NCBI GenBank assembly: GCA_023480735.1
Contig: JAMCXB010000028.1
Coordinates: 280-64,279 of the forward strand
DNA length: 64,000 nt
Origin: Bacteroidota bacterium
Lineage (GTDB): Bacteria > Bacteroidota > Ignavibacteria > Kryptoniales > JAKASW01
Direction: 5' to 3'
Both the position numbers and the translations under genes were made by a program. Positions 7,572 to 36,887 of the stretch are shown here, piece by piece. The notes below the pieces were generated by a model, which saw nothing but the letters and a program-made list of their open reading frames with translations, made no database searches and was not told the origin of the DNA. Position 1 is the stretch's first letter; the number at the start of each line of letters is the position of its first letter.

Positions 7572-7669
7572 ACGAATTCCGTCTTTAATTCTGGGCTAAT
7601 ATAACACTCGGCAAATTGGGATGCCTAACTGGTTTCTCAACTGGGTACCTAACCGTGAATGAATGGAGA

Positions 7670-7699
7670 GCCGGCTGTCGATAGCCGGCCTTTATTTTT
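7670..7699 (+). terminator. orphan rho-independent terminator-like hairpin
   Basis: GCCGGCT-gtcgat-AGCCGGC followed by CTTTATTTTT. No plus-strand gene lies upstream. Confidence 0.5.
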
Positions 7700-7783
7700 C
7701 AAAGAGATACTCAGCTGCGGTTGTTCCTATTCTTATAGTCTCCCTTACAGAAATTGCCGGCTCATGCGAATGTCTCCTGTTTC

Positions 7784-10054: not shown

Positions 10055-12544
10055 CTACTCCTCTTCTTCAAACAGGTCTGGCTGGTTATCGTTGGAACCG
10101 TTCCCGTTGGACTCTCCGTCTTCTTCCGCGAGAACACGTGCGACAGCAGCGATCATGTCGCTGCCTTGCAGGCGTATTAGCCGCACTCCCTGCGTGTTCC
10201 TGCCGGCAAGACGAATGTCCTTGACGTGCTGTCGAATCAGGAAGCCTTTCGTGGTGACGATCATGATGTCGTCGTTGTCGATGACTTCCTTGATAGAAAG
10301 GAGCTTTCCGTTTTTGTCGCCGGTCTTGACGGTAATCAGTCCCTTGCCTCCGCGACGACGCAGAGAATACTCACCGACTTCGCTTCTCTTTCCGAAGCCT
10401 TTATCGGTCACGATGAGAATGCTCGCGCCGGGCCTGCTGACGGTGATCATGCCGATTACCTCGTCGCCTTTCGACAGATTCATTCCCTTCACGCCGCGTG
10501 CGCCCCGTCCCATCGGGCGAACGTCCTTCTCGCTGAACCTCAGCGCGAGGCCGTTCTTGCTCCCGATAATTATGTCCTGCTTTCCGTTTGTCAGCCAGGC
10601 GTCGATCAGTCGATCTCCCTTGTCGAGCCCAATGGCAATGATTCCGACTTTCCTCGGGTTCGCGAATTCGCTCAGGGCAACTTTCTTGACGTGACCGCGC
10701 TTCGTTACCATCGTCACATAGAAGTCTTCGCTGAAATCCTTCACGGGCAGGAATGCTGTTATGTCTTCGTCGGGCATCTTCCCTATCAGGTTCACGATAG
10801 ATCTTCCACGGGAGACTCTTCCGCCTTCAGGGACCTCATGTACTTTCAGCCAGTAGGCACGTCCCTTGTCGGAGAAGAACAGGATATATTGGTGCGTCGA
10901 CGCGATGAACATGTGTTCTACAAAATCGTCCTCGCGGGTCGATTGCGCCGTGATCCCCTTTCCGCCGCGGATCTGGCGCCTGTAACCGCTTACCGGATAA
11001 CGCTTTATGAAGCCGTTGTGCGTGATCGTTATGACCACATCCTCTTCGGCGATCATGTCCTCTATGCTGAACTCGGATGCCTTCTCCACGATCTCCGTCC
11101 GGCGCTCGTCGCCATAGTTTTTCTTCAGCTCAAGGAGTTCTTCGCGGATAATGTCCATCCTCATGGTCTTGCTGGCGAGTATCGCGCGCAGCTTCTCTAT
11201 GAGTTTTATTGTCTCCCGGTACTCATCCTCAATCTTCTTTCTTTCCAGGCCGGTGAGTCTCTGCAGTGTCAGGGCAAGAATAGCCCTCGCCTGTATCTCG
11301 CTCAACTTGAACCGCTTCATCAATGCAAGCCTTGCCGATTCAGGATCCCTCGATTTCTTGATGATCTGTACCACCTCGTCGATGTTGTCGAGCGCAATTT
11401 TGTAGCCCTCGAGTATATGAGCCCGCTTCTCTGCCGCATCGAGATCGAACTTCGTCCTCCTGACAACTACTTCGTGACGGTGCTCGATGAAGTGCTCCAT
11501 CACCTCTTTGAGGTTGAGAACTTTCGGAACCCCCTCCACGAGGGCAAGCATAATCACGCCGAAAGTCGTCTGCATCTGGGTGTGCTTGTACAAGTTGTTC
11601 AGCACAACCTGCGGCTCCGAGTCTCTCTTCAACTCGATGACGACACGGATACCGTCGCGGTCCGACTCGTCCCTAATGTCGGATATGTCTTCTATCTTCT
11701 TCTCTCTCACCAGGTCTGCGATCTTCTCGATCAGATTTGCCTTATTAACCTGGTAAGGTACTTCGGTAACTATTATGTTTACCCTTCCGTTCTTAAGCGT
11801 CTCGATGTTCACCTTCGCGCGGAGAATAATCCGTCCGCGGCCGGTCAGATAAGCCTCCTTCACGCCTTCGTAGCCGAAAATGATTCCGCCTGTAGGGAAA
11901 TCCGGAGCCTTTATAATCCTTATCAGCTTCTCAATCGGCATGTCAGGATTCTTTATCAGGTTCGCTATCGCATCTACCGTATCGCTGAGATTGTGGGGAG
12001 GTATGTTCGTCGCCATACCGACCGCGATTCCGCTGGAGCCGTTCACTAGCAGGTTGGGAACGAGAGCCGGGAGAACGAGTGGTTCCTTAAGGGATTCGTC
12101 GAAGTTCGAAGTAAAGTCCACCGTGTTCTTCTCCAGATCGCGGAGCATTTCCCCCGCGATTCTGGAAAGTCTCGCCTCCGTATAACGCATAGCGGCAGCC
12201 GAATCTCCGTCAATCGAGCCGAAATTTCCCTGGCCGTCCACAAGGGGGTAGCGCAACGACCAGTCCTGGGCCATCCTGACAAGCGTATCATAAACCGCCG
12301 AGTCGCCATGAGGGTGATATTTTCCAAGCACTTCTCCGACGATCCTTGCGCTCTTTTTGTAAGGCTTGTTGTAATCGAGCCCGAGGTCCATCATTCCAAA
12401 AAGAACCCGCCTATGTACAGGCTTGAGGCCGTCGCGAACATCAGGGAGTGCGCGCGCCACGATGACGGACATCGCGTAATCTATATACGAGCCTTTTATC
12501 TCGTCTTCTATGTCGACCGGTACTAATTTTTCATTCAATGACAT
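10055..12544 (-). CDS. gyrA: DNA gyrase subunit A
   Basis: 829 aa. Contains KPVHRRVL, the catalytic-Tyr region [13 protein letters not shown], and C-terminal beta-pinwheel repeats. Confidence 0.98.
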
Positions 12545-12596
12545 GATGACCTATTCCAATTTTCCATTGTTTCATTATTTCGACAGGTTGTCTCCA

Positions 12597-14651
12597 TTAC
12601 ACATCCAGGTTCCTGACGTACTTTGCGTTCTTCTCGATGAAGTTCTTTCTAGGCTCGACATCTTCTCCCATGAGGATCGAAAATGTCCTGTCCGCATCAG
12701 CGGCACTCTCGATGCTGACCTGGAGAAGCGTACGCTTGGTAGGATCCATGGTCGTCTCCCAGAGCTGCTCTGGATTCATCTCACCGAGCCCCTTAAATCT
12801 TGAGACTAGAACTTCCGCATCGGTGCCTTTCTTGTATTCCTTAATCAAATCGTCCCGTTCCTCTTCGCTGTATGCGTACTGTTCCGTCTTTCCTCTTTTT
12901 ACTTTGTACAGTGGAGGTTGAGCGATGTACACTTTTCCCAGCTCGACAAGCTCCTTCATGTATCTGAAGAAAAAAGTCAGTAGCAGCGTTCTAATATGGC
13001 TTCCGTCCACGTCGGCATCCGCCATGAGTATAATTTTTCCATACCGCGCCTTTTCCGCGCTGAATTCGTCGCCGTCGCCGATCCCCGCTCCGATTGCCTG
13101 TACAATGGAGCGGATTTCGTCGTTCTCGAGAATTTTATTCATCCTCGCCTTCTCGACGTTCAGGATTTTCCCTTTCAGTGGAAGTATCGCCTGGAATTGC
13201 CTGTCTCTTCCCTGCTTCGCCGAACCACCCGCAGAGTCTCCCTCTACGATGAAGATCTCGCAGTGCTCCGGATCATTGATAGAACAGTCGGCCAGCTTGC
13301 CGGGAAGGTTCGATGACTCGAGCGCGTTCTTCCTTCTGACAATCTCCCTTGCCTTACGCGCTGCTTCACGCGCCTCCGCTGAGTTAACAGCTCGCTCGAT
13401 AATCCTTTTCGCTATGCCGGGGTTCTCTTCGAGGTACTGTCCCAACCTGTCGTTCACTATCGTCTGCACTATGCTTTCGACTTCACTGTTTCCCAGCTTC
13501 GTTTTCGTCTGGCCTTCGAACTGCGGCTCCGGAACTTTCGTGCTTATGACGACTGTCAGTCCCTCTCGGAAGTCATCTCCAGTAAGGTTAATCTTGTCTG
13601 ACTTCACCAGGTTGTTCTTGTCTGCATAAGACTTCAGGGTTCTTGTAAGGGCGCTTCTGAAGCCGCTGACGTGAGTACCACCTTCGACTGTGTTGATGTC
13701 GTTGACGTACGAGAAGAGGTTCTCCCGGTAGTCGTCGCAATACTCGAACGCGACTTCAACCGCTACACCGTCCCGGTCGCCGGTGACAAAGATAGGATCC
13801 TTCGCGAGCGTCTTTCTGGTGCCGTCGATGTAGCGGACGAATTCGACAATCCCACCCTTGTAGTGAAATACTTCCTCGTTCCCGTCGCGCTTGTCCTTGA
13901 GCTTTATTATAATTTCAGGATTCAGAAATGCAAGCTCCCGCATTCTCTCCGCAAGCGTCTCAAATTTGTACGTCCTGTTCTTGAATATTTCCTTGTCGGG
14001 CATGAAGGTGATTGTTGTTCCGGTCTTCGTGTCCTTTCCGGTAACTTTCACGGGCTCCGCCGGCTCCCCGCGTTTGTACTTCTGGTAGAATATTTTTCCC
14101 TCGCGGTAAACGTTCACTTCCAGAACCTCGGACAGTGCGTTCACAACAGACACGCCGACCCCGTGCAACCCGCCTGAGACTTTGTATGTTGACTTGTCGA
14201 ACTTTCCGCCCGCATGAAGCATCGTCATGACTACTTCGAGCGCGGATTTCTTCTCCTCCGGATGCATATCGGTCGGGATGCCGCGGCCGTCGTCTTCCAC
14301 CGTTACACTCCCGTCCTTGTTTATCGTGACAAGAATGTTCTTACAGTAGCCCGCCAGTGCTTCGTCGATGGAATTGTCCACGACCTCATAAACAAGGTGA
14401 TGCAGCCCGCGCTGGCCAACGTCCCCGATATACATTGCCGGACGTTTTCGCACAGCCTCAAGTCCTTTAAGAATAGTTATACTCTCGGCTGTGTATCCTT
14501 TACCGTTGTCCGTTTTTGGTTTCGATTTTTGTTCTACGACTTCGGCCGAGAATTTCTTAGTATCTTTCTCGTCGGCTCCGTTCTTCTTAGCCTTACCGTT
14601 CTTCTGCAATTTCCGCGGCCCTGACTTAGTCGCCACGTCCTTCTTTGCCAT
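12597..14651 (-). CDS. gyrB: DNA gyrase subunit B (with a ~55-aa Lys-rich N-terminal extension)
   Basis: LEAVRKRPAMYIG, GGLHGVG, EGDSAGGSAKQGRD, PLKGKILNVE. The N-terminus is MAKKDVATKSGPRKLQKNGKAKKNG... Confidence 0.98.
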   Translation of the reverse strand: MAKKDVATKSGPRKLQKNGKAKKNGADEKDTKKFSAEVVEQKSKPKTDNGKGYTAESITILKGLEAVRKRPAMYIGDVGQRGLHHLVYEVVDNSIDEALAGYCKNILVTINKDGSVTVEDDGRGIPTDMHPEEKKSALEVVMTMLHAGGKFDKSTYKVSGGLHGVGVSVVNALSEVLEVNVYREGKIFYQKYKRGEPAEPVKVTGKDTKTGTTITFMPDKEIFKNRTYKFETLAERMRELAFLNPEIIIKLKDKRDGNEEVFHYKGGIVEFVRYIDGTRKTLAKDPIFVTGDRDGVAVEVAFEYCDDYRENLFSYVNDINTVEGGTHVSGFRSALTRTLKSYADKNNLVKSDKINLTGDDFREGLTVVISTKVPEPQFEGQTKTKLGNSEVESIVQTIVNDRLGQYLEENPGIAKRIIERAVNSAEAREAARKAREIVRRKNALESSNLPGKLADCSINDPEHCEIFIVEGDSAGGSAKQGRDRQFQAILPLKGKILNVEKARMNKILENDEIRSIVQAIGAGIGDGDEFSAEKARYGKIILMADADVDGSHIRTLLLTFFFRYMKELVELGKVYIAQPPLYKVKRGKTEQYAYSEEERDDLIKEYKKGTDAEVLVSRFKGLGEMNPEQLWETTMDPTKRTLLQVSIESAADADRTFSILMGEDVEPRKNFIEKNAKYVRNLDV

Positions 14652-14663
14652 TAACTACCTCTC

Positions 14664-14981
14664 TTAGATGAAAAATATATCTTCTACTCCCGAATCGGGA
14701 TATTTCTCCCTTATCTTCTGCATGATTGCGGGCTTCATAAAAACAAGCTCGTTGCGCCAGGTGCTGTTTGCCGTCCTGACGTAAAGAGTCCCGTTTTCAA
14801 GCCTTGATATCTCCGTCTTTTTTGCGATCGCTTCGCCTACGATGCTTTCCCAGTCTCCGACCACCTGGTATGCCCGGAGTTTTCCGGAAACACCTTTTTG
14901 CTGTGTAAACTCCTTTATCAATTCACCGAGCCTCTTGGCCCCTTGCGAGCCAGCGGCGCCGTCTCCACTAAACCCTGGCAT
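14664..14981 (-). CDS. DUF721 (DciA-like) protein
   Basis: 105 aa, overlaps the recF stop by 14 nt, and sits at the typical position downstream of recF. ...VGDWESIVGEAIAKKTEISRLENGTLYVRTANSTWRNEL matches the DUF721 pattern. Confidence 0.8.
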   Translation of the reverse strand: MPGFSGDGAAGSQGAKRLGELIKEFTQQKGVSGKLRAYQVVGDWESIVGEAIAKKTEISRLENGTLYVRTANSTWRNELVFMKPAIMQKIREKYPDSGVEDIFFI

Positions 14982-16092
14982 TTTCGTAGACCACGCTTCC
15001 CTCTTTTACAAAATGGAATTTCGTGTTGCTCATGTCCAGAAACTTATCATCGAAGCTAAGCATGTCTGTCGACGTGATGAACGTCTGGCCAAGGCCCGAG
15101 ATCACACCGATCGTTCTTGTTGCCCGTTTATAGTCAAGCTCTGTCATCACGTCGTCCAGAAGCATTACCGGTGTTTCACCAAGCATCTTCCTGATATAGT
15201 GGAACTCGGCTATTTTTAGTGCAACCAGGAACGTCTTGTGCTGTCCCTGTGACGCAAACTCTTTCAGAGACCTGTCGTTCAAGATGAAACCTATGTCGTC
15301 ACGGTGCGGGCCGACCAGTGTCGCTCCTCTCGCGCGCTCCACCTTAAAGACTTTTTCGAGCTCTCTATGAAATGTCTCCCCGATCGCATCGCTCGCCTTG
15401 AATGACGGTTCATAGTACAACCCGGGCACTTCCCCGGATTCAACGAGCGTAGCATAGGCCGACTTGAATGTTTCCTGAAAATCCAGGACAAACTCGTCCC
15501 GCTTTGTTATAATCTTCGCGCCGTGAGCGACAAGCGCGTCGGTCCATGCATCGAGCATTTCTTTATCAAGAATGTTGCTGATCTTTCCGTCGAGTAATAT
15601 CTTGTTTCTCTGTTTTAGAGCGCGCCTGTATTCAACCAGTTCTTCCAGGTATGACCTAGAAATCTGTGACAGTACCATGTCGGCGAACTTCCTCCGCTCG
15701 GCCGGCGAACCTGTTGTAAGAGTGAAGTCTCCGGGCGAGAGCATCACTATCGGAAACATTCCAATAACCTCCGAACTCCTCCTTATTTCATTCCTGTTGA
15801 GGAAGTACTTCTTCCCTGTGCCGCTTCCGTAGACAACCCGTGCGTGGTTCATAACGCTTCTGTCGCCTTCCATCGCTGCGTCTATCGCGAACAAATCCGA
15901 ACCGAATTTCGGCACCGTCAGGTCGGCCTGCTGCAGGAAACTCTTGGTCAGACAAACGTACGATAATGCCTCCAGTATGCTCGTCTTCCCCTGCGCGTTG
16001 CCGCCGATTATCAGATTTACTCCCGGCGTGAATTCGAGCGAGGATTCGGAATGATTCCTGAAATTTTCCAACCGGATCTTCTTAAAGTGCAT
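14968..16092 (-). CDS. recF: DNA replication/repair protein RecF
   Basis: Walker A GGNAQGKTSILEA and the C-terminal LLDDVMTELD signature. Confidence 0.95.
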   Translation of the reverse strand: MHFKKIRLENFRNHSESSLEFTPGVNLIIGGNAQGKTSILEALSYVCLTKSFLQQADLTVPKFGSDLFAIDAAMEGDRSVMNHARVVYGSGTGKKYFLNRNEIRRSSEVIGMFPIVMLSPGDFTLTTGSPAERRKFADMVLSQISRSYLEELVEYRRALKQRNKILLDGKISNILDKEMLDAWTDALVAHGAKIITKRDEFVLDFQETFKSAYATLVESGEVPGLYYEPSFKASDAIGETFHRELEKVFKVERARGATLVGPHRDDIGFILNDRSLKEFASQGQHKTFLVALKIAEFHYIRKMLGETPVMLLDDVMTELDYKRATRTIGVISGLGQTFITSTDMLSFDDKFLDMSNTKFHFVKEGSVVYENARV

Positions 16093-16095
16093 TCT

Positions 16096-17226
16096 TTAGT
16101 TCAACCTAAGGGGCATCACCAGTATCAGAATTTCCTGTCCGTTTTGTTTGGCGTCTTCCGCGACCGGCTTTATCGTCACTGCCCGCGTGGGCGATGATAA
16201 TGCAAACCTCACCTTCCCGGCATCCATACTGCTCATCGCATCTGTTATGTATGTCGAGTTGAAGCCTATACTCATCGCCTCGCCGCCGTTCCACTGTACC
16301 AAGAGTTTTTCCTCTCCCATCTGTCCTCTGTCCGCGTCTTCGGCTGAAATAATCAATTGGTCTTTGTCTATCGTGAATTTCACAAGATGATTTACAGAGT
16401 CAGATAGTATCGATACGCGACGGACTTTTTCGAGAAGTTCCTCTCTTCCTACTGTCATCAACTTGTTGTTGTCGATATCGCCGGGAATAACGGCTTCGTA
16501 ATCAGGATGAGGTTCTTTAATCAGCCTGGTTATCAGTTCGGTGTCATTGTTCTTCAGTCTTATGTGATCCTCTGCTATCGTCAGATCGATATTCGAAACC
16601 TTGAAACTCTTGGACGCAAGGGACAAAGCCTTTTCTTGAATATTCGCTTCGCTCTTCAGGGGCTTCTCCACCAACGCTTTGTCGGCTATACGAACCAGCC
16701 TGTGTCCGTCTGTAGAATATATTCTTGCGCCCTTCCCGGAAAATTGAAAGAGCACACCGTTCATCGAGCGTCTGTGCTCATCTTTTGAAACCGCAAATAA
16801 TGTTCTCTCTATGACCGTGTGAAGCGACTCTGCGCTGATTGTTGAGCTTTCTGCATTCTCTCCAAGCGTCGGAAGTGTCGGATATTCATCGGCCGGAGTA
16901 CATGCAAACTTGTAGGATCCCGATTTTGTCTTCAATGTCAGCTTAAGACTCTCATCTACCGTAATCTCAATTTCTGCATCGTCCAAATTCCTGACAATTT
17001 CAAAAAACTCTTTCGCATTTACCGTGACTCTTCCCTCTTGCTCGTCACTGATATCAACCTGTGTCGACATGGAGATTTCAAGATCCGTGGCGGAAATAGT
17101 CAGCTTCTTCTTGCCCACTTCAAGCAGCAGATTCTCGATCGCCGGAATTGTTGTCCTGACAGGAACAACGCCGATGATCCGGCTAATCACGTCTCTGAGT
17201 TCCCTGCTGTTCACTTTAAATTTCAT
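16096..17226 (-). CDS. dnaN: DNA polymerase III beta subunit (sliding clamp)
   Basis: 376 aa, MKFKVNSRELRDVISRIIGVVP..., three-domain length, located between dnaA and recF. Confidence 0.97.
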   Translation of the reverse strand: MKFKVNSRELRDVISRIIGVVPVRTTIPAIENLLLEVGKKKLTISATDLEISMSTQVDISDEQEGRVTVNAKEFFEIVRNLDDAEIEITVDESLKLTLKTKSGSYKFACTPADEYPTLPTLGENAESSTISAESLHTVIERTLFAVSKDEHRRSMNGVLFQFSGKGARIYSTDGHRLVRIADKALVEKPLKSEANIQEKALSLASKSFKVSNIDLTIAEDHIRLKNNDTELITRLIKEPHPDYEAVIPGDIDNNKLMTVGREELLEKVRRVSILSDSVNHLVKFTIDKDQLIISAEDADRGQMGEEKLLVQWNGGEAMSIGFNSTYITDAMSSMDAGKVRFALSSPTRAVTIKPVAEDAKQNGQEILILVMPLRLN

Positions 17227-17621
17227 TTTCCGCCTCCATTGTTTGCAGAATACTTCAAGTTAGAGTCCTGTTAATTTTAATTAAATTTAGCCTTTTTCAG
17301 CCTGATATTCAATTTAGTATTGCTTGGGATACGCTGTGGAAAACTCTCTATTAATATTAATATCTATATTATATGATATAAAGAAGAGTAATAATAAGGG
17401 CTGTGGATATGTTAGCAACTTGCTTGACTCCTTTTAACTTTTTGTAATTGTGACACATAGAAAACTGGAGTCCCGGAAAATTACTCACAACAGCCGACTG
17501 AAAACTTGTTAGTAAACGACGACTTCTCAACAAGCCCCCAAAACAGAGGTGGACTTTGTTGAACACTTCTGTGTATTCCACCTAAACTCCACGTCTTTCA
17601 ACACCGCTACAAACAAGTTGT
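17227..17621. promoter_or_regulatory. oriC part 2 (dnaN-dnaA spacer): AT-rich unwinding candidate plus DnaA boxes
   Basis: TGTGGAAAA at 17335-17343 and TGTGGATAT at 17402-17410 flank a nearly pure AT stretch at about 17347-17397 (ttaatattaatatctatattatatgatataaag...). Confidence 0.6.
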
Positions 17622-19022
17622 TCACATTCCTATCATTTCAATTTTTTTCTTGGTCGATTCATATTTTTCCCTGAATCTGTTATCGTTCGACAGTAGTTCT
17701 GCTATCACCTGGCATGCATATATCACCGTCGAGTGATCCCTACCTCCGAAGTGGCTGCCTATTGTTTTTAACGGCAGCTGGGTCAGATCCTTGGTGAGAT
17801 ACATAGCCGTCTGCCTAGCGATCACAATCTCCTGCTTCCTTGTTTTCCCGCGAAGCTGCTCCTGTGTCACGTCAAAAACATCGGCAATCACTTTCTGTAT
17901 ATCTTCTACAGTCACCGCTGTTTTCCTGCTGACAGCCAGGCTGCGCACGACCTCTTTTGCCAGATCTACCGATACTTCCCTGTTGTTGAGGCTGGCTTTT
18001 GCCAAGATACTGATAAGGCTTCCCTCGAGTTCACGAATGTTTGATGTTACGTTGGCCGCTACATATTCGATAACATCATCGGGCATCGCGATGCCGTCAT
18101 CTTCGCTCTTTTTTCGGAGGATTGCTATTCGTGTCTCCAGGTCCGGCGGCTGAACGTCAACGGTCAGGCCCCACGTGAACCTGCTGACCAACCTGTCATC
18201 AACGCCCTTCAATTCTTTCGGAGGCCGGTCTGACGATAAAATGATTTGCTTACCTGATTGATGCAATGCGTTGAACGTGTGGAAAAAATTATCTTGTGTC
18301 TTCTCCTTTCCTCCGAAAAACTGTATGTCATCCACAATTAGGATATCCATGCTCCGGTAGAAATTCGAGAACTCACTCGCTCTGTCCTTTTGAATTGCCT
18401 CGACAAAATCGACGGTGAATCGCTCACTTGACACGTACAGTACCCGCTCGGACCTCCCCATCTGGCGCGCATAATTTCCTATCGCCTGAATGAGGTGCGT
18501 CTTTCCAAGACCCACACCACCATAGATGACGAGCGGATTGAATGAAGTACCGGCAGGATTGTTTGCCACGGCGTAGGCAGCAGCACGGGCGAACTGGTTG
18601 CTGTCGCCCTTAATGAAATTTTCGAAAGTGTACCTTGGGTTCAGGTTGCCTTCAAAGGAGGGCTTGCTAACGGGTCTTTGAGACGCGACGCTCTCCGCTT
18701 GAGAACCAATCCTGCCCGGTCGTGGCGGCCGGTAAAACATTTGTTCGGATTCTATAACATCGTCCTCCGAGATCACGTAGTCCACACGGACGTTCTCGCC
18801 CACCACTTTCCTTATCGACTCTGCCACAATCGATGAGTAGTGTTCCTCCAGCCAGTCATGAAAAAACTGGCTCGGTACCCGGAGTACCAGATTATCGTTT
18901 TCCAGACTCACCGGTACAACAGGTTCAAACCAAGTCTTGTAGGTTAGATTGTTTACCCGCTCGTGAATGACTTTCATGCATTGCTGCCAAGCCCCACTGG
19001 CATCTGTAACTGCTTCCATCAT
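17622..19022 (-). CDS. dnaA: chromosomal replication initiator DnaA
   Basis: Walker A GGVGLGKTHL, DDIQF, and C-terminal DNA-binding region HSTV... Confidence 0.98.
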   Translation of the reverse strand: MMEAVTDASGAWQQCMKVIHERVNNLTYKTWFEPVVPVSLENDNLVLRVPSQFFHDWLEEHYSSIVAESIRKVVGENVRVDYVISEDDVIESEQMFYRPPRPGRIGSQAESVASQRPVSKPSFEGNLNPRYTFENFIKGDSNQFARAAAYAVANNPAGTSFNPLVIYGGVGLGKTHLIQAIGNYARQMGRSERVLYVSSERFTVDFVEAIQKDRASEFSNFYRSMDILIVDDIQFFGGKEKTQDNFFHTFNALHQSGKQIILSSDRPPKELKGVDDRLVSRFTWGLTVDVQPPDLETRIAILRKKSEDDGIAMPDDVIEYVAANVTSNIRELEGSLISILAKASLNNREVSVDLAKEVVRSLAVSRKTAVTVEDIQKVIADVFDVTQEQLRGKTRKQEIVIARQTAMYLTKDLTQLPLKTIGSHFGGRDHSTVIYACQVIAELLSNDNRFREKYESTKKKIEMIGM

Positions 19023-19732
19023 TGGCTTCCCGTCCTACTGTTGAAACATTCTCCACATTATTAACATGGTTATCAACAAGCTCGCTTCTTGTGTAACCAA
19101 CGCAATATCAAATGGTTAATGGGATAATTAGCACAAAGTTAACATTAGTGTTGAAAACTTAGGGGAAACGATAAACTAGTCACAATTTGAAAAGAAGCGA
19201 AAATTTTGCTGTTTTCCACAAGTTATCCACACCAAACTCTCCCAACACCTTGCTTCGAATAATAATACAGCGGTTGTGGAAAAACAAGATGGCTCGCTCT
19301 TGTTTTGTTGGTGTAACTCGTTATTATACAGGGTGTTATGTGGAAACCCGCGCGGTGTGTGGAAAACTTTCACGGACACCAATTAGCTCCCGTTCTTTGA
19401 AGAATCAAGTGCGATTTACATGGAAATTGTGGAAAAGTACGGGGGATTTGTGGAAAACCGCCCGGATGCTGTTGACTATGGCAGGAGAAGGATGTTGATA
19501 GAAAAGGCGACGCAATTAACAAATGTGAGAGTACCCCCCCACTTATGGTTTCTCGCCAAGCCGCGAGCTCGCAAAGCGAACCGCTCGTCAACATTTCTTT
19601 TCGTTCTTGGCGCCTTTGCGAGAGAAATAACCCTTTCAGTGAGGCATTACATGTGAGATAAGGAAAACCTTGAATTTTGTCGGGCTTGGAGCTAACTTAC
19701 CGGGCAAAATTTAAATCTAGCAGGAGTATCAG
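19023..19732. promoter_or_regulatory. oriC part 1 (dnaA-rpmH spacer): DnaA-box array
   Basis: Perfect TTATCCACA at 19223-19231. TTTTCCACA at 19212-19220 and TTCTCCACA at 19049-19057. In the opposite orientation, TGTGGAAAA/C at 19275-19283, 19339-19347, 19358-19366, 19428-19436 and 19449-19457. Confidence 0.8.
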
Positions 19733-19879
19733 ATGAAGAGGACGTTTCAACCTCATAATGTAAGCAGAAAAAGGACGCATGGCTTTCGTTCAAAGATGCA
19801 GACGAAGAACGGAAGGAAGGTTTTAGCCCGCAGGCGGGCCAAGGGTCGCTGGCGTCTCACAGTAAGCGACGAGAAGTAG
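19733..19879 (+). CDS. rpmH: 50S ribosomal protein L34
   Basis: My own translation (below the ORF-track cutoff): [48 protein letters not shown]. An AGGAG SD lies upstream. Confidence 0.95.
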
Positions 19880-19893
19880 AGATTGAACGGCGC

Positions 19894-20298
19894 TTGTCCC
19901 ACAGTGAGGAAACCGGACATCACACGCTTCCGAAAACCTGCATCATCAAATCCTCAAGAGAAATCAGCAGCATCTTCAAGTCGGGAAAGCGCATCAACGG
20001 AAACAACATTTCGGTTGTCTATTTGCTGCGCCCCGACACAGAGACGGCCAGAATTGCATTTACGGTATCCAGGAGAGTAAAGCGCGCAGTCGATCGCAAC
20101 CGCCTGAAGCGACTGATGAGAGAAGCCTTTCGACTCAACAATGAGAGGTTGAACGATACCGTCCGAGAGAAGAGGACCGGTGTTGACATCATACTCAGCT
20201 ACGGTCACGACCTTGCCAAAAAATCCTTGTCATTGAAAGACGTTGAAAAAGATTTCAAGCATTTTGTATCTAGAATCAGTAACGACATTGCCGGCTGA
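19894..20298 (+). CDS. rnpA: ribonuclease P protein component
   Basis: Follows rpmH. ...[33 protein letters not shown]... and [12 protein letters not shown] are typical RnpA patterns. The TTG start is uncertain. Confidence 0.9.
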
Positions 20299-20500
20299 CG
20301 CCGCAGTGTTGCTGATCGGGTTATATAAGAAGTTCGTCTCGCCGCTCTTTCCGCCCTCGTGTAGGTTCTACCCAAGCTGTTCCACCTATTCGATCGAGGC
20401 ATTTCGCAAGCATGGTTTCTTCAAGGGACTTTTTATGAGCGTCTGGAGAATTCTCCGCTGCAATCCATTCAACAAAGGCGGATTCGATCCGGTGAAATAA
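20288..20500 (+). CDS. yidD: membrane protein insertion efficiency factor YidD
   Basis: [36 protein letters not shown]. The ORF is open from 20243. I chose the TTG at 20288, which overlaps the rnpA stop; the start is uncertain. Confidence 0.85.
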
Positions 20501-20510
20501 AGGGAGATAA

Positions 20511-22337
20511 ATGGGGAAGACTGAAACAATAGGGATTATTATCATAACGCTCGTGCTCTTCGTGTGGATGTTCCTCAACACCCCTAAGCAACCGCCGCGT
20601 CCGAAGCAGCAGACAAGCACCGAACAGGCTGTCGGGACAAGCGGTCAGGGAAAGAACGGAGGCGCGCGTCCAGAACTACCGCCAATTCCCGGAGAGAGAG
20701 AAACCGCTGTTTCGTCGAGCGACACATCCGGACTGAGTCTTTACGGAAGAACATTCGCACCTTTTACACACGGGAACGTCAAGACCATTACAATCGAGAC
20801 GAGTCTCTACAAAGCCGTCCTGACCTCCGAAGGTGGGATGATCAAAGACTGGACGCTTACGAAGTATAAGACATGGAGCGGAGCGCCGGTTGAACTGGTC
20901 AACTACAATCATAAGGGCGACTACAGTTTGCTGTTCCAAACCATGGACGGCAAGCTTGTCGACACAAAAGGCCTCTATTTCAATGCGTCCTTTCCAGACG
21001 GTGAAGTCGTAAAGCTGTCAAAGAACCAGACGTTTAAGGTTAGGTTCGCACTTGACGTAAACGATTCGTCGCGGATAATCCGGGAGTTCACTTTCACGGG
21101 CGGGGTTTACAATTTCGGTTCGCAGGTTACGCTCAAAGATATGGGTCCGTATATAGCGAACTATCAATACCAGGTGACGTGGGAACATGGTCTGAATTAT
21201 TCCGAAGAGAACAGCGTCGACGAATCCAGTTTTTCAACGGCCTATGCCGACAACGGCGGCGATATCGTTTCTCTAGAGGCCTCCAAACTCAATCAACCGG
21301 TCAAACAGGAACTCAGCGGCAATACATCATGGATATCTCAAACCACCAAGTATTTCACTGTTGCGATAGTTTCAAAAGGGAAGCCTGCCGACGGGGCGTA
21401 CCTGCATGGCATTGAGCGAAGCCTGCCGAATAACGGGTTGGAGCGGCAATACTACACAGCACTGCAGATGAGGTTCATGGGGCAGCCGGCCCAGACAGAC
21501 TCATTCATGATTTATGCGGGTCCGCTGGACTACAACCTCTTGAAGTCCTACAACGTCGGGCTAGAAGGGACCGTCGGGCTCGGCTGGCATTGGGTCATAC
21601 GTCCCATTGCCGAATATGTGATGCTCCCCGCTTTTGAATTCCTGCATTCGTTCATCCCGAATTACGGAATCGTTATTATCATCTTCGCGATCGCCCTGAA
21701 GATTCTCCTGAATCCGTTGACTGTATCGAGCATGAAGTCCATGCGGAAGATGCAGGCGCTTCAGCCGATGATGGAGGAAATAAAGGAGAAGTATAAAGAA
21801 GACCCGCAGAAGATGAACCAGGCGGTCATGGGATTGTACAAGGAGTACAAGGTCAACCCGATGGGCGGGTGCTTGCCGATGGTGCTGCAGTTGCCCATCC
21901 TTTATGCGCTATGGGCAATCTTCAGGAGCAACATCGCGCTGCGGCAGTCCGACTTCATCTGGTGGATCAAGGATCTTTCCATTCCGGATACGATTTTCCG
22001 GCTGCCGATCACTCTGCCGGTCGTAGGCATGAATCAGATAAGCGGTCTCGCGCTGCTCATGGCGATTACGCAGTTCATCCAGATGAAGATGACCACGAAA
22101 GATCCGAGGCAGCAGTTCATGATTTACTTCATGCCCGTCATGATGTGGTTGATATTCAATAATCTGCCATCCGGGTTGAATCTGTACTACTTCGTCTTCA
22201 GCTTCCTGTCGATTGGGCAGCAGTATCTCCTGAACAAGAAGCCCATGGAGGAAGTCCTGACCAAGCCGGCCCCGCCTAAGAAAAGAGAGAGGCCGCCGCG
22301 ACCGCAGGTAGGCAACAGAGCGATGAGAAGGATGTAA
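20511..22337 (+). CDS. yidC: membrane protein insertase YidC
   Basis: 608 aa with a large periplasmic domain, then the conserved C-terminal core ...MRKMQALQPMMEEIKEKYKEDPQKMNQAVMGLYKEYKVNPMGGCLPMVLQLPI... Confidence 0.95.
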   Translation: MGKTETIGIIIITLVLFVWMFLNTPKQPPRPKQQTSTEQAVGTSGQGKNGGARPELPPIPGERETAVSSSDTSGLSLYGRTFAPFTHGNVKTITIETSLYKAVLTSEGGMIKDWTLTKYKTWSGAPVELVNYNHKGDYSLLFQTMDGKLVDTKGLYFNASFPDGEVVKLSKNQTFKVRFALDVNDSSRIIREFTFTGGVYNFGSQVTLKDMGPYIANYQYQVTWEHGLNYSEENSVDESSFSTAYADNGGDIVSLEASKLNQPVKQELSGNTSWISQTTKYFTVAIVSKGKPADGAYLHGIERSLPNNGLERQYYTALQMRFMGQPAQTDSFMIYAGPLDYNLLKSYNVGLEGTVGLGWHWVIRPIAEYVMLPAFEFLHSFIPNYGIVIIIFAIALKILLNPLTVSSMKSMRKMQALQPMMEEIKEKYKEDPQKMNQAVMGLYKEYKVNPMGGCLPMVLQLPILYALWAIFRSNIALRQSDFIWWIKDLSIPDTIFRLPITLPVVGMNQISGLALLMAITQFIQMKMTTKDPRQQFMIYFMPVMMWLIFNNLPSGLNLYYFVFSFLSIGQQYLLNKKPMEEVLTKPAPPKKRERPPRPQVGNRAMRRM

Positions 22338-27492: not shown

Positions 27493-27526
27493 AAAGCGGC
27501 ACTCCAACGGTGCCGTTTTCTTCTTT
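27493..27526. terminator. bidirectional terminator between ssb and the protease gene
   Basis: AAAGCGGCAC-tccaacg-GTGCCGTTTT stem-loop followed by a T-rich run. Confidence 0.6.
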
Positions 27527-27832
27527 GGAGGACACTAGCTTTAGTGAGAATAGGCGCGCTACTTCATCAGGACGAGCTTCTTCGTCGAAGTAAAGTCGTT
27601 TCCATCGCTCACCACGGCCGACAGTCGATAGAAATAGACTCCGCTCGGTAGGCCGGCACCGCTGAATGCCACAGAGTGAGAACCCGCGGTCTGGTTTGCA
27701 CTAACCAATGTCGCTACGTCGCGACCGAGAACATCGTATATTTTCAGGGTCACATGGCTCACGCCCGGCAGGTCGTAGCTTATTACCGTTGTGGGATTAA
27801 ACGGGTTTGGGTAGTTTTGATACAGGCTGAAA

Positions 27833-28610
27833 CCAGCCGGGGTCGGTTTAACGTCTTCCGCAGTCGGGAAACTGACATACGCGCGGATGAGATAGATAGC
27901 CACAGTCGAATCTGTGTCGGTAACGTAATACCAGCCCGCCGGATTGGGGGACGCCTCGGAAGAGGTAAGATATGTGTAGCTGTGGTATGGATTTTGTCCG
28001 GGATATTCCGTGACCATGACACCCGGATCTGGATTACCGATCACGAATGCTACCGCAAACGGCTGATCCGTGCTAATTCCCATCGATGACAGTTCGACGC
28101 TTGCCCAGTTCTGGTAGGGGACAGGATAGGGAAACGGGGATGAAGCATAGATACTCGCTATGATGGGCGCCACCAGAGGCTTTCCCAGCGGGGTTGGACT
28201 CACGTTCCCTGTAAAGCGGTACACGCCGCCGCTGATGGACCCTCCGTTTCTAAGGGCGACCCGAACGGAATCGAGAACGCCTCCGGGATACGCCCCGAAG
28301 GTTACACAAAGTGTATCCGATACCGACCAGGGGAAATAGCCATCAGGTTCCGCTGTGTCCCATTTCAGTTCCTCTACGGTTGCAGGACCGCTTCCGCTTG
28401 CCTTGTAGCCGACGACCACATCGTTGTTCGGGTCTTCATTGATTACGATAAAAGCGATTTTGGTATACGTCGTTCCGTAATCGGGCACGGAGAACGGTAC
28501 GCCGAAGGGAACATCAGCCAACGTAGAACTGCTCCCGAATTCGACTGCCTTAACCGAAAGATTTGGGTCGGAACCGGGGTTTGTAAACGTAACAGAGAGG
28601 TTGCTTCCAC
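27833..28610. repeat. tandem duplication, unit A (778 bp)
   Basis: Read base by base against 28611-29388 and found identical. The offset is exactly 778. Confidence 0.95.
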
Positions 28611-29388
28611 CCAGCCGGGGTCGGTTTAACGTCTTCCGCAGTCGGGAAACTGACATACGCGCGGATGAGATAGATAGCCACAGTCGAATCTGTGTCGGTA
28701 ACGTAATACCAGCCCGCCGGATTGGGGGACGCCTCGGAAGAGGTAAGATATGTGTAGCTGTGGTATGGATTTTGTCCGGGATATTCCGTGACCATGACAC
28801 CCGGATCTGGATTACCGATCACGAATGCTACCGCAAACGGCTGATCCGTGCTAATTCCCATCGATGACAGTTCGACGCTTGCCCAGTTCTGGTAGGGGAC
28901 AGGATAGGGAAACGGGGATGAAGCATAGATACTCGCTATGATGGGCGCCACCAGAGGCTTTCCCAGCGGGGTTGGACTCACGTTCCCTGTAAAGCGGTAC
29001 ACGCCGCCGCTGATGGACCCTCCGTTTCTAAGGGCGACCCGAACGGAATCGAGAACGCCTCCGGGATACGCCCCGAAGGTTACACAAAGTGTATCCGATA
29101 CCGACCAGGGGAAATAGCCATCAGGTTCCGCTGTGTCCCATTTCAGTTCCTCTACGGTTGCAGGACCGCTTCCGCTTGCCTTGTAGCCGACGACCACATC
29201 GTTGTTCGGGTCTTCATTGATTACGATAAAAGCGATTTTGGTATACGTCGTTCCGTAATCGGGCACGGAGAACGGTACGCCGAAGGGAACATCAGCCAAC
29301 GTAGAACTGCTCCCGAATTCGACTGCCTTAACCGAAAGATTTGGGTCGGAACCGGGGTTTGTAAACGTAACAGAGAGGTTGCTTCCAC
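28611..29388. repeat. tandem duplication, unit B (778 bp)
   Basis: Identical to 27833-28610. The identity extends 2 nt further (CC at 29389-29390 = 28611-28612), giving junction microhomology. Confidence 0.95.
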
Positions 29389-30585
29389 CCTTGAAAATCA
29401 AATATTCCGCCGCGACGTTTTGTACCGTGTCGGTACCGGAAACGTTCGGATTGTAAAAGTCCTCTCCGTTTGACGGAGGGAGATCCGGGTATGCATATCC
29501 GTAAAGGCGATTCGTCGTAGTGTCGTTCAATTCGTTTGCAATGAGCCAGTCTGTAAAGAGGCCGTTGAAGTTCAACGACGAACCGTCTTCCTGGAGGGCG
29601 CCGTTCAGAATAGCCTGAGGTGTGTTCTGCTCACTCTGAACGATGTATTTGAAAATTCCTATGCCTAACCTATCCCAGATGTATAGGAAGAATCTCTGCG
29701 CTCTTGCGTAGTCGTTGAGAACCAGCGTGTTGTCGTTTTTCCGCCAGGTAAAGAGATAAATGTTCGTCTCGTTTGCATATAACGACAAATCGTCAGTCGG
29801 ATATCCGCAGTAGACCTCCGCCAGCTTGGAGCAGCCCTCGTTTATGAAAGTCGGTTCCTGCACCGTCTGATGGTAGTTATAATTTATCATATGCTGGAAC
29901 TCGTGCGCGGTTGTAGACATCGCCTGTTCAATTCCACCGGCCGTTGTCAGATCTGTAGGGTCCGCATCGACATAATAGATTTCAGCCCTGTTGCTGTACG
30001 GCTGATTCGTCTCGTTCGTGGGATCGAAAAACCCGGCAATGTATCCGCCCGTTCCCTTGTACCCGTCCTGTATGTTGCAGATCAGGATTATGATTCTAGG
30101 ATCGTTGTCGACATCTGGAGGGTTTCCGAACGCGTTGACGTCCATCTCGTAAATCCCCTCGTTGGGATTAGCCGGTGTTCTGTTGTCGAAATCGTTTTCG
30201 ATCGAATCGACCGCTGCCTGCGTCACGCGCGTCCCCCAGAGAGAGTCTTCGACAAAGATATAGCAGTGCGAGCCGACGCTCCGGCAGGTTGATGGGTCTA
30301 AATAATATTTAGTGGTTGCGTAGTCATAGACATACCAACTGTGTGTGGTCCCTACGGTAAAGCCCCATGAACTGACCTTATCGAGCCGCATTCTTTCGGT
30401 CAACCCGGGATGTGAGGCAACATACTCCGCCGCCTGCCGGTACTGCCTCTCGAGAAGCGGGGTGCCGTCAATGGGGTAGCTCCTGGTTGTTGGAGTCTCT
30501 TGCACGGGCGTCCTTTGAATTGACTGTGCAAAAGGCTGGCCATAAGCGAGAGCTATGAAGGCGAAAATCAGTGTGAGTTTCATTT

Positions 30586-30921
30586 CTACCTCCGCAATGT
30601 TTCAGAATTACCGTGAATGAGCTTCACGCCGACGACGTAAATTTCTATGCCAAATCTTGTTTCCCGGATCCTGTTGTACGTGAGCACCGCGATTTTTCCT
30701 TGATGCGAGAGGAGGATTTGTTCGATTTCTTTCTTGCAGTTTATTAAGTAGACTCTGTCCTTTGTGACTCTGACCGCGAGCCTGGCAAACGGCTCGTTCC
30801 CGACAACCATAATCTCTCCCGTTGCCTTTCGTGGGTGATCGAAGACTGTCTGCGAGGAGACACAACCTGCAAGTAGTAGTGCCTGTAAGAAGAGAGCCGC
30901 TTTTAAGGTCTTGGTTTTCAT
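30586..30921 (-). CDS. small lipoprotein, function unknown
   Basis: Start chosen at the ATG at 30921 (MKTKTLKAALFLQALLLAGC lipobox). It lies immediately upstream of the protease gene, with only 2 nt between them. The longer 242-aa ORF has no support. Confidence 0.6.
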   Translation of the reverse strand: MKTKTLKAALFLQALLLAGCVSSQTVFDHPRKATGEIMVVGNEPFARLAVRVTKDRVYLINCKKEIEQILLSHQGKIAVLTYNRIRETRFGIEIYVVGVKLIHGNSETLRR

Positions 30922-36179: not shown

Positions 36180-36887
36180 TATCTTCCTTTCCTTTCATAT
36201 TCAATAACAAAAAATAATGTTAATTGGTTATGAAGATTGCATGAAATTATGCCTACTTTTTGAACCGGGTTAATCAAACGCTAATACGTGTGGGTTGTCC
36301 ATTAGACGGAAGTTGATTAGTCAAATAGCCCTGGGGACTAGAGGCTGCTTCGCAGGAACGCGACACTCACGGAGACTATCTGTAAACTTCTGAACCAATG
36401 GGGCAACATTGATCCGATAGTATCGCCTGTACATGTCCTGCTCAATCAGGATGAAGAACGAGAGACTTCCCTTCCCGCAAGTCGAAGTAAGGCAAGGGGT
36501 TAAGGCGGGTTGCCGAGGCTGCGAATAAACGGCCCACCCTCCGGTCCGGCCAAAACAACACTCATCGTGAGTGAGCCAGCCCGACAGATTTGATTTTTCA
36601 CTGAGGCTCAATTAGATTCACCCTAGATTTAAAGTCTGGTCGTGCATGCTTCAGGAAGGGCAAGAACACCGTTTGAGTCCGAGAAGCTCCAACAAGACCC
36701 CCTCGTGGTGACGAACGAACCTCCCATCAAAAAGCGACTTCAGCACTAAGCTCTTCATTTGACGCAAAGCCGGTTCAAATAGATCGATCACCGTTGCCAT
36801 GTGCATCTGCAAAGGGCGCAGTGAACGTCTGATAATGTCCGGCGAAAATGTTGTTTACTACAAACATTATTTGGTCGTCAAAAATAC

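What the first reader, a model, noticed from the sequence alone, without database searches (positions are those of the whole stretch)
27833..29390. Base-perfect 778-bp tandem duplication (3n+1) splits a T9SS metalloprotease gene
Units 27833-28610 and 28611-29388 are identical at every position I compared, with a 2-nt CC microhomology at the junction. Because 778 = 3x259+1, the minus-strand reading frame that enters unit B from the catalytic half (signal peptide, HEFQH) crosses into unit A out of frame. It stops after 19 codons ([19 protein letters not shown], stop at 28550-28552). The correct frame resumes only in the downstream ORF that carries the T9SS sorting domain. Removing one unit restores a single 748-aa ORF (658 + 90 aa). 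Zero divergence means either a very recent event or an assembly artefact. If it is real, 778 bp of perfect direct repeat is an efficient substrate for homologous collapse. The locus could then behave as a reversible ON/OFF switch for a secreted protease, uncoupling the catalytic domain from its secretion tag.
Basis: seen in the sequence. Interest (0 to 1): 0.75.

Follow-up and report, generated by a model that had tools for sequence, protein, structure and literature searches.

The report
Perfect tandem duplication splitting a secreted protease gene
A 778-bp stretch inside a secreted-protease gene of an uncultivated bacterium is present twice in a row without a single difference, which cuts the enzyme off from its export tag; it is either a very recent, reversible mutation or an assembly error, and a sister genome from the same submission shows a second such duplication in the same gene.

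Summary
Window 27833-28610 and 28611-29388 are identical (778/778), with a 2-nt CC microhomology, and this is the only long direct repeat in the 64 kb. The repeat splits a minus-strand gene. ORF1 (677 aa) is NCBI MCL5267301.1 from a "Bacteroidetes bacterium" MAG. Removing one unit gives a 748-aa ORF, the length of the closest ortholog (85% identity).

The protein is an M30 (lugdulysin-like) zinc protease with an intact HEFQH motif, two beta domains and a type A T9SS sorting domain. dN/dS against the ortholog is 0.06, so the gene was under constraint until very recently.

The new finding is a second MAG that appears to belong to the same NCBI submission. It is from the 85%-identical sister species and carries a different perfect tandem duplication in the same gene (107 bp, 3n+2, no microhomology). 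Eighteen other contigs of that species, and about 850 kb of loci fetched from other assemblies (mostly this gene's neighbourhood), carry none.

So the cause is specific to this gene and to this batch. It could be real, selected, revertible inactivation, or a pipeline artefact at a strain-variable gene. Reads were not available, so this stays open at roughly 50:40. A dedicated ON/OFF switch is not shown.

The parts
27833..28610 (.). Duplication unit A. This is the gene-distal copy, read in the correct frame by the downstream ORF. It encodes residues about 400-658.
   Evidence: Identical to 28611-29388 at 778/778 positions.
28611..29388 (.). Duplication unit B. This is the gene-proximal copy, read in the correct frame by ORF1.
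   Evidence: In protein coordinates it covers residues 399/400-658.
29389..29390 (.). CC microhomology at the repeat edge. The same CC opens each unit at 27833-34 and 28611-12.
   Evidence: The period-778 identity run is 780 nt. The flanks beyond it share no similarity.
28550..30583 (-). ORF1, 677 aa. It holds the signal peptide, the M30-like catalytic domain, both beta domains and a 19-aa out-of-frame tail, and lacks the sorting domain. It is identical to NCBI MCL5267301.1 (M1469_04260).
29891..29905 (-). HEFQH zinc-binding motif (residues 227-231).
   Evidence: It aligns with AHEYQHM of lugdulysin and is invariant in 31 orthologs.
27559..28800 (-). ORF2, 413 aa from a GTG start (frame open from 28818). 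The first 62 aa or so are out-of-frame junk, followed by residues 400-748 in frame. It has no signal peptide.
   Evidence: Por_Secre_tail scores 33 bits at residues 330-395. This exact product is absent from the protein collection.
27559..27831 (-). Region coding the type A T9SS C-terminal sorting domain (residues 659-748 plus the stop).
   Evidence: TIGR04183 38.6 bits and PF18962 31.9 bits. The profile hits the PDB 8glj sorting domain.
30586..30921 (-). Upstream 111-aa lipoprotein gene (lipobox LLLAGC). It ends 2 nt before the protease start codon and is conserved next to the orthologs.
   Evidence: Homologs of 94-113 aa sit in the same position in L001, L003, L085-L091, overlapping the protease start by 4 nt in L001. 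No Pfam match.
27497..27515 (-). Terminator-like hairpin 44 nt after the stop codon of the gene.
   Evidence: Consensus scan only. The number of such sites is not above the shuffle expectation.

Best explanation
The duplication is most likely a real and very recent tandem duplication. It would be carried by at least a sizeable part of the sampled population of an uncultivated Kryptonia-like Bacteroidota bacterium.

An illegitimate, near homology-free (2-nt) join duplicated 778 bp inside a 748-aa gene. That gene encodes a secreted M30-type zinc protease.

Because 778 = 3n+1, translation from the native start yields a 677-aa protein. It has the signal peptide, an intact catalytic site and both beta domains, but no T9SS sorting domain. 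Such a protein would reach the periplasm but could not cross the outer membrane through the T9SS (inferred from what is known of T9SS cargo).

The sorting domain is left on a downstream frame that has no signal peptide. The allele is therefore a loss of secretion.

The two copies are 778 bp of perfect homology, so RecA-type recombination or replication slippage can delete one copy precisely and restore the gene (inferred from general knowledge of tandem duplications). That makes the allele revertible.

The second, independent duplication in the sister species is read here as inactivation of this costly secreted enzyme being favoured in that habitat. Insertion-type variants may also be preferentially carried into consensus assemblies.
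For: Shown:
- The structure and frame consequences.
- The collapsed ORF is 748 aa, the same as the 85%-identical syntenic ortholog P0002 with no indel.
- dN/dS is 0.057 overall, 0.083 in the unit and 0.053 in the sorting domain. Neither half has decayed, so the disruption is recent.
- All 16 neighbouring genes but one are full length and collinear, so base-level quality is high.
- The unit edges share only 2 nt and the flanks share no similarity. A de Bruijn-graph assembler cannot create this junction by over-traversing a loop in single-copy DNA. It needs junction k-mers from reads (inference about assemblers).
- An independent 107-bp perfect duplication with different breakpoints, also frameshifting, occurs in the same gene in MAG GCA_023474965.1 (L003 7552-7765).
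- The sister species shows extra strain polymorphism in this part of the gene: 6 of 14 SNPs between L003 and L001 lie in the gene. This fits a surface-exposed protein under varying selection.
- A MEGAHIT contig from another data set (L084) joins the gene at about residue 432 to 138 nt of foreign DNA, roughly k-1 for k=141. This may be an insertion allele.
Against: - No reads were available, so neither the junction nor 2x depth could be checked.
- The window species has no second representative in any collection. The best non-self protein is 85% identical, and the junction 22-mer is absent from the GTDB representative genomes and from JGI contigs.
- Both duplications occur only in MAGs that appear to share one NCBI submission, judged from neighbouring locus-tag prefixes (M1395, M1469) and protein accessions.
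- Eighteen contigs of the sister species from at least 3 other SRA runs, ENA assemblies and a TPA assembly carry the intact gene.
- About 850 kb of loci fetched from other assemblies contain no comparable duplication. Batch specificity is what a pipeline artefact predicts.
- Microhomologies of 2 and 0 nt are at chance level and are short for slippage-type events.
- Large tandem duplications are a small fraction of spontaneous loss-of-function mutations, so two out of two is unexpected unless there is an ascertainment bias.
Confidence: 0.5

Rival explanations
1. Assembly or post-assembly artefact. The organism has one copy and an intact 748-aa gene. A step after graph assembly joined two sequences that truly overlap by 780 bp (107 bp in the sister MAG) end to end instead of merging them. 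Candidate steps are contig merging across samples, gap closing, local reassembly or polishing, and chunk stitching. This would have happened at a gene where co-existing strains differ.
For: - Both cases come from what appears to be one NCBI submission. The same failure mode, a perfect tandem copy, recurs with chance-level microhomology of 2 and 0 nt.
- 18 other contigs of the sister species, and about 850 kb of loci fetched from other pipelines, show none.
- The sister-species duplication starts 14 nt after a cluster of three SNPs private to that MAG (7451, 7479, 7538). The region is a strain-polymorphism hot spot where assemblies break.
- Other assemblies of this gene are visibly messy: L085 has inverted chimeric ends and L084 has a foreign end.
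- Zero divergence and an otherwise strongly constrained gene are what a false duplication looks like.
Against: - There is no N run or gap next to the repeat, and no other duplication in the 64 kb or in the 17.7 kb of the sister contig.
- There is no shared k-mer at the unit edges, so ordinary de Bruijn loop over-traversal is excluded. An unusual extra pipeline step has to be assumed, and the pipeline is unknown (literature searches for the accessions found nothing).
- A generic artefact would not be expected to hit the same 2.2-kb gene in two genomes and nothing else in 82 kb.
Confidence: 0.4
2. Adaptive phase variation, a sub-case of a real duplication. The gene would be a contingency locus in which tandem duplications of varying length and position arise often and collapse precisely. 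Populations would then always hold secretion-ON and secretion-OFF cells, as in pneumococcal capsule genes.
For: - Two independent frameshifting duplications with different breakpoints and lengths (778 and 107 bp) lie in the same C-terminal half of the same gene in two species. This is the pattern described for cap3A, cap8E and tts, cited in PMC4022640 refs 28 and 33.
- The gene is otherwise under strong purifying selection.
- A possible third disrupted allele exists in another data set (L084).
Against: - No ON and OFF alleles were seen together in one sample, and no reversion was seen.
- No sequence feature that would raise the duplication rate was found. There are no internal repeats of 16 nt or more and no shared motif at the four breakpoints.
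- 18 other contigs of the sister species are all ON.
- None of 80 more distant orthologous loci shows a duplication.
Confidence: 0.1
3. Functional split or domain accretion. The duplication would be a step towards a protein with an extra beta-domain set, or a two-gene arrangement in which both products are used.
For: The unit spans most of the two beta domains, and its 3' edge falls in the low-confidence linker (residues 649-656) before the sorting domain.
Against: - The length is 3n+1, so no fusion protein is made.
- The 5' edge cuts through the first beta sandwich, between strands 391-398 and 401-408.
- ORF2 has no signal peptide. No ortholog among more than 600 has this architecture, with lengths clustering at 740-760 aa.
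Confidence: 0.02

Closest known systems
Pneumococcal capsule phase variation by spontaneous tandem duplications within cap3A, cap8E and tts (Waite et al. 2001, 2003; cited in PMC4022640)
   Same: Perfect tandem duplications of variable length and position inside one ORF cause a frameshift and loss of function. Precise loss of one copy restores the gene. Several independent duplications occur in the same gene.
   Different: In the pneumococcal case both phases and reversion were shown in culture, and from my own recollection the units were short (tens to a few hundred bp). Here nothing is shown beyond two assembled alleles in two MAGs. One unit is 778 bp, and the target is a T9SS protease in an uncultivated environmental lineage.
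Unstable short-junction tandem duplications and amplifications in Salmonella and E. coli (work of Roth and of Andersson; own knowledge)
   Same: Formation does not need RecA and uses little or no junction homology. Loss is frequent and depends on recombination between the perfect copies. Such alleles are maintained only under selection.
   Different: Those are usually multi-gene duplications selected for increased dosage. This one is intragenic and destroys function.
False duplications in draft assemblies (overlapping contig ends concatenated at gaps or merges; own knowledge, e.g. Kelley and Salzberg 2010)
   Different: There is no gap or N run at the junction, only one case per contig, and both cases hit the same gene.
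Peptidase family M30 (hyicolysin, lugdulysin) and T9SS type A cargo proteins
   Same: The HExxH catalytic core aligns with lugdulysin in sequence (single sequence E=5.6e-20, family profile E=1.4e-30) and in fold (E=1.8e-17). The C-terminal type A sorting domain scores above the curated cutoffs.
   Different: The Pfam M30 model scores just below its gathering cutoff (22.8 against 25.8 bits). The staphylococcal enzymes have no beta-domain extension and no T9SS tag. The substrate is unknown.
Simple-sequence-repeat contingency loci (Haemophilus, Neisseria, Campylobacter)
   Same: A reversible frameshift switches a surface or secreted function ON and OFF.
   Different: No homopolymer or short repeat tract is involved, and the event is not site-specific or pre-programmed by the sequence.

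Membership tests
T9SS type A cargo protein | C-terminal type A sorting domain (TIGR04183 / PF18962) above the curated cutoff | tested here: met
   TIGR04183 scores 38.6 bits (cutoff 23). PF18962 scores 31.9 bits (cutoff 27) at residues 665-730 of the collapsed protein. In the actual sequence the domain lies only on ORF2.
T9SS type A cargo protein | N-terminal Sec signal peptide on the same polypeptide as the sorting domain | tested here: not met
   The signal-like N-terminus (MKLTLIFAFIALAYGQPFAQ, judged by eye with no predictor) is on ORF1. The sorting domain is on ORF2. The feature is met only in the collapsed 748-aa reconstruction.
T9SS type A cargo protein | T9SS machinery encoded in the genome | not tested
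   Only one 64-kb window is available. Orthologs in related MAGs are named T9SS type A sorting domain proteins by their sources.
Peptidase M30 (hyicolysin/lugdulysin) | Match to the family model above the curated threshold | tested here: inconclusive
   PF10460 scores 22.8-23.1 bits against a cutoff of 25.8. However, phmmer against lugdulysin 7bb8 gives E=5.6e-20 and a profile of 31 orthologs gives E=1.4e-30 over residues 71-350.
Peptidase M30 (hyicolysin/lugdulysin) | HExxH zinc site and the fold of the catalytic domain | tested here: met
   HEFQH at residues 227-231 aligns with HEYQH of lugdulysin, and NEG aligns with NEA downstream. The motif is invariant in 31 orthologs. The AF2 model (pLDDT 80.6) matches 7bb9/7bb8 by Foldseek at E=1.8e-17 with TM 0.63-0.71 on the target.
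Phase variation by intragenic tandem duplication (cap3A type) | A perfect tandem duplication inside an ORF causes a frameshift, and removing one copy restores the ORF | tested here: met
   The restored length equals that of the ortholog.
Phase variation by intragenic tandem duplication (cap3A type) | Several independent duplications of different length and position in the same gene | tested here: inconclusive
   A second duplication exists (107 bp, L003 7552-7765). It is in a sister species and in what appears to be the same submission, so an artefact is not excluded.
Phase variation by intragenic tandem duplication (cap3A type) | ON and OFF alleles co-exist in one population and interconvert | not testable with these tools
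   This needs reads, amplicons or cultures. The window species occurs in no other assembly.
Assembly artefact (false tandem duplication) | A repeat of at least k-1 nt at both unit edges that would allow loop over-traversal in a de Bruijn graph | tested here: not met
   The edges share 2 nt in the window and 0 nt in L003. The flanks show no similarity.
Assembly artefact (false tandem duplication) | Gap, N run or other scaffolding trace at the junction | tested here: not met
   There are no Ns in the window.
Assembly artefact (false tandem duplication) | Recurrence tied to one pipeline or submission and absent from other assemblies of the same organism | tested here: met
   Both duplications are in MAGs with neighbouring locus-tag prefixes and accessions. 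18 contigs of the sister species from other sources are intact. There are none in about 850 kb of other loci.
Assembly artefact (false tandem duplication) | Junction unsupported by reads and single-copy depth | not testable with these tools
   There was no access to reads. The window MAG is not in the gene-position index.

The most novel reading that the evidence does not exclude
The M30-type T9SS protease of this Kryptonia-like lineage would be a natural contingency gene. In the wild it would be switched off again and again by tandem duplications of arbitrary length that separate the catalytic body from the T9SS export tag, and switched on again by recombinational collapse. That would be a duplication-based phase variation of a secreted public-good enzyme, seen directly in environmental populations of two species.
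Probability: 0.12. Interest if true: 0.65.

Novelty: new member of a known kind. Interest (0 to 1): 0.4.

Why it matters
If the duplications are real, two related uncultivated species independently inactivated the same strongly conserved secreted protease by a revertible mutation. That would be field evidence for fluctuating or habitat-specific selection against secreting a costly enzyme. It would also be a natural example, outside pathogens, of duplication-based ON/OFF variation.

If they are artefacts, the case is a useful warning. They get annotated as truncated proteins, as happened with MCL5267301.1 and MCL5033583/4. Either outcome can be settled cheaply by read mapping.

Tried and rejected
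1. Tandem Repeats Finder found nothing because the period exceeds its 500-nt limit. An exact k-mer analysis was used instead.

2. An independent copy of the junction was sought and not found.
   - The 22-mer at the unit end is absent from the GTDB representative genomes and from JGI metagenome contigs.
   - ORF1 and a neighbouring protein are not in the gene-position index.
   - ORF2 is not in the protein collection.

3. Literature searches for the accession strings (SRR17201078, JAMCW*, GCA_023474965 and others) found no paper, so the assembler and habitat remain unknown. A search for papers on artefactual tandem duplications in MAGs gave nothing directly usable.

4. Other shortened family members were examined as possible further split alleles.
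   - P0018 lies on a long-read contig where uvrC is also fragmented, so it reflects sequencing error.
   - P0020 is cut by a contig end.
   - P0021 and P0027 carry an extra domain, not a duplication.

5. More sequence from the same submission was sought through GyrA homologs. The NCBI-only hits proved to belong to other projects (GCA_027400755.1, GCA_046706365.1), so the batch-wide duplication rate could not be measured.

6. The foreign 138 nt of L084 was tested and remains unidentified.
   - ARAGORN found no tRNA.
   - Rfam gave no convincing match.
   - The 31-mer is absent from JGI and viral contigs.

7. Cross-species chimerism as the source of L003's private SNPs was rejected, because the variants do not match the window species.

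8. A domain-duplication reading was rejected, because the unit is 3n+1 and its 5' edge cuts a beta sandwich.
Full report
**1. Observation**

The repeat is real in the sequence. Window 27833-28610 and 28611-29388 are identical at 778 of 778 positions. The run of period-778 identity is 780 nt, so the two units share a 2-nt CC at the join.

The flanks outside the repeat show no similarity to the unit ends. There are no Ns. No other direct repeat of 30-mers, or of 16-mers within 3 kb, exists in the 64 kb. Tandem Repeats Finder missed it only because its period limit is 500.

**2. Effect on the gene**

The repeat lies in a minus-strand gene.
- ORF1 (30583..28550, 677 aa) reads through unit B in frame. 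It crosses into unit A shifted by one base and stops after [19 protein letters not shown].
- The correct frame is open again from 28818, with the first start at GTG 28800 (413 aa). After the junction it re-encodes residues 400-748. So the downstream ORF holds a full second copy of the duplicated segment plus the sorting domain, not just 90 residues.
- Removing one unit gives a single 748-aa ORF.

**3. What the gene is**

- The C-terminus is a type A T9SS sorting domain. TIGR04183 scores 38.6 bits (cutoff 23) and PF18962 scores 31.9 bits (cutoff 27).
- Pfam Peptidase_M30 is just below its cutoff (22.8 against 25.8 bits). However, ORF1 alone matches lugdulysin, the Staphylococcus lugdunensis M30 zinc peptidase (PDB 7bb8), at E=5.6e-20, with HEFQH aligned to HEYQH.
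- A profile of 31 orthologs matches lugdulysin at E=1.4e-30.
- An AlphaFold2 model (mean pLDDT 80.6) finds lugdulysin as its top PDB match (E=1.8e-17).
- The model shows a catalytic domain (about 36-365), a beta sandwich (about 374-472), a second beta domain (about 478-645), a disordered linker (649-656) and the sorting domain (660-748).
- The unit (residues 400-658) starts inside the first beta sandwich and ends in the linker, so it is not a clean domain duplication.
- A 111-aa lipoprotein gene (30586-30921) sits directly upstream and is conserved in this position in the orthologous loci.

**4. Provenance and relatives**

- ORF1 is identical to NCBI MCL5267301.1, [quoted passage not shown], on a 64,414-bp contig. 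It is the only member of its 90% cluster.
- More than 600 homologs exist, mostly 740-760 aa, in Kryptoniota, Ignavibacteria and Melioribacter MAGs.
- The closest ortholog, P0002, is 85% identical, exactly 748 aa with no indel, and syntenic (uvrC, glyoxalase, lipoprotein, protease, ssb, DUF3276, wza-like, ilvD, yidC, rnpA, rpmH, dnaA).
- Of the 16 neighbouring genes compared, 15 are full length in the window, so base-level quality is high.
- dN/dS between the collapsed gene and the ortholog is 0.057 (catalytic half 0.041, unit 0.083, sorting domain 0.053). The gene was under strong constraint throughout, and neither half shows decay. The disruption is therefore either very recent or not real.

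**5. A second duplication in the same gene**

The 90% cluster of P0002 contains two adjacent NCBI proteins from another MAG, GCA_023474965.1 (contig JAMCWC010000004.1). These are MCL5033583.1 (631 aa) and MCL5033584.1 (152 aa), with locus tags M1395_*.

Their DNA (L003) carries a perfect 107-bp tandem duplication at 7552-7658 / 7659-7765. It has no microhomology and is 3n+2 in length. It lies in the same gene at residues about 594-629 and again separates the catalytic body from the sorting domain.

The locus-tag prefixes (M1395, M1469) and protein accession numbers suggest one batch submission. This is an inference.

By contrast:
- 18 other contigs of that sister species carry the intact 748-aa gene. 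They come from Logan assemblies of SRR17201078, SRR13201255 and SRR22746126, several ENA assemblies and a TPA MAG.
- No comparable perfect tandem repeat (period of at least 50) occurs in the other 92 fetched loci, 848,846 bp.

The cause is therefore specific to this gene and to this batch.

**6. Real or artefact**

*For a real event:*
- With only 2 or 0 nt shared at the unit edges, a de Bruijn-graph assembler cannot produce the junction by going twice round a loop in single-copy DNA. Junction k-mers would have to be present in reads (inference from how such assemblers work).
- There are no gaps.
- Only this gene is hit in 82 kb of batch sequence.
- The gene is a plausible target of selection, being a costly secreted enzyme with surface-exposed domains. 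It also shows elevated strain polymorphism in the sister species. Six of 14 SNPs between L003 and L001 fall in the gene, and several haplotypes occur within 600 bp.
- A MEGAHIT contig from another data set (L084) joins the gene at about residue 432 to 138 nt of unrelated DNA. That is about k-1 for k=141, as expected when a unitig runs into a multi-copy element. This may be an insertion allele.

*For an artefact:*
- Both cases belong to one apparent submission and share one failure mode.
- The microhomology is at chance level.
- The L003 duplication begins 14 nt after three SNPs private to that MAG, that is, at a place where strain mixtures break assemblies.
- Other assemblies of this gene are visibly faulty. 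L085 has inverted chimeric ends.
- Large tandem duplications are a minor class of spontaneous loss-of-function mutations (own knowledge), so two out of two is odd unless insertion-type minority alleles are preferentially carried into consensus contigs.

*Weighing.* I could not obtain reads, the assembly method, or more sequence from the batch. My estimates are:
- about 0.5 for a real duplication in at least part of the population;
- about 0.4 for an artefact;
- about 0.1 for the stronger claim of adaptive phase variation.

**7. Mechanism if real**

*Shown:* the native start yields a protein with a signal peptide, an intact zinc site and both beta domains but no sorting domain. The sorting domain lies on a frame with no signal peptide.

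*Inferred from established knowledge of T9SS:* cargo without the C-terminal domain is exported to the periplasm by Sec but not passed through the outer membrane. The allele therefore abolishes secretion rather than catalysis.

*Inferred from general knowledge of tandem duplications:* 778 bp, and to a lesser degree 107 bp, of perfect direct repeat is far above the minimal length for homologous recombination. Precise loss of one copy should therefore be frequent relative to formation. Formation is homology-independent and not site-specific. That makes this a revertible mutation, not a sequence-encoded switch.

**8. Comparison with known systems**

- The nearest described system is pneumococcal capsule phase variation through spontaneous tandem duplications inside cap3A, cap8E and tts (Waite et al. 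2001, 2003; cited in PMC4022640). The anatomy is the same: variable perfect intragenic duplications, a frameshift and precise reversion. The defining behaviour, co-existing and interconverting phases, is untested here.
- It differs from simple-sequence-repeat contingency loci, because no repeat tract is present.
- The protein is an ordinary member of a large, conserved family of M30-like T9SS cargo proteins.

**9. Verdict**

The switch idea is unproven, and reality against artefact is unresolved but cheap to test. The case is of moderate interest because of the second duplication in the sister MAG. It should be scored low if read mapping shows single-copy depth.

Noticed in passing
L003:7552-7765 (GCA_023474965.1, JAMCWC010000004.1): A perfect 107-bp tandem duplication (3n+2, no microhomology) lies in the orthologous protease gene of a sister-species MAG that appears to come from the same submission. 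It splits the gene into 631-aa and 152-aa products (MCL5033583.1 and MCL5033584.1).
   Followed up: yes
L084:1-138 (ENA ERZ27233565, k141_900953): 138 nt of unrelated DNA are joined to the sister-species protease gene at about residue 432. The length is about k-1, as for a unitig running into a multi-copy element. The reverse complement folds into a tRNA-like three-way junction with a GGTTCGATC motif (z = -3.2). It is not called by ARAGORN, has no convincing Rfam match, and is absent from JGI and viral contigs.
   Followed up: partly
L085:1-91 and 2086-2414 (ENA ERZ27233560, k141_1068503): This short MEGAHIT contig of the same locus has inverted copies of upstream sequence at both ends (one only 92% identical). 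It also has a 4.6%-divergent patch inside the protease gene. This is either chimeric assembly or recombination with a co-occurring relative.
   Followed up: partly
window 36229-36588: This is a variable island between the GT2 gene and the GAF-SpoIIE gene. The sister species carries an HD_5 gene here (L001) or a histidine kinase plus HDOD response regulator (L088). The window keeps only the last 38 codons of the HD_5 gene.
   Followed up: partly
window 52087-52120: A perfect 34-nt palindrome, TCAGTCGGGGTTGAACATGTTCAACCCCGACTGA, lies inside a 109-aa ORF (52030-52359). It is the only long inverted repeat in the window and its function is unknown.
   Followed up: no
window 10055-22337: The locus lies in the origin-proximal gene cluster. 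gyrA is at 10055-12544, dnaA at 17622-19022, and rpmH, rnpA and yidC at 19733-22337. ORFs positioned like gyrB, recF and dnaN of related loci lie between gyrA and dnaA. The duplicated gene is only about 8.5 kb from dnaA.
   Followed up: no
window 30586-30921 (-): A conserved 111-aa lipoprotein gene (lipobox LLLAGC, no Pfam match) lies immediately upstream of the protease and appears translationally coupled to it in all close orthologous loci. It could be a cognate inhibitor or chaperone, which is speculation.
   Followed up: partly
L003:7451, 7479, 7538: Three substitutions private to the duplication-bearing MAG are clustered within 101 nt just upstream of its duplication. All seven other strain sequences carry the other allele. 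This could mark a strain-variable assembly break point or error-prone repair at a real breakpoint.
   Followed up: partly
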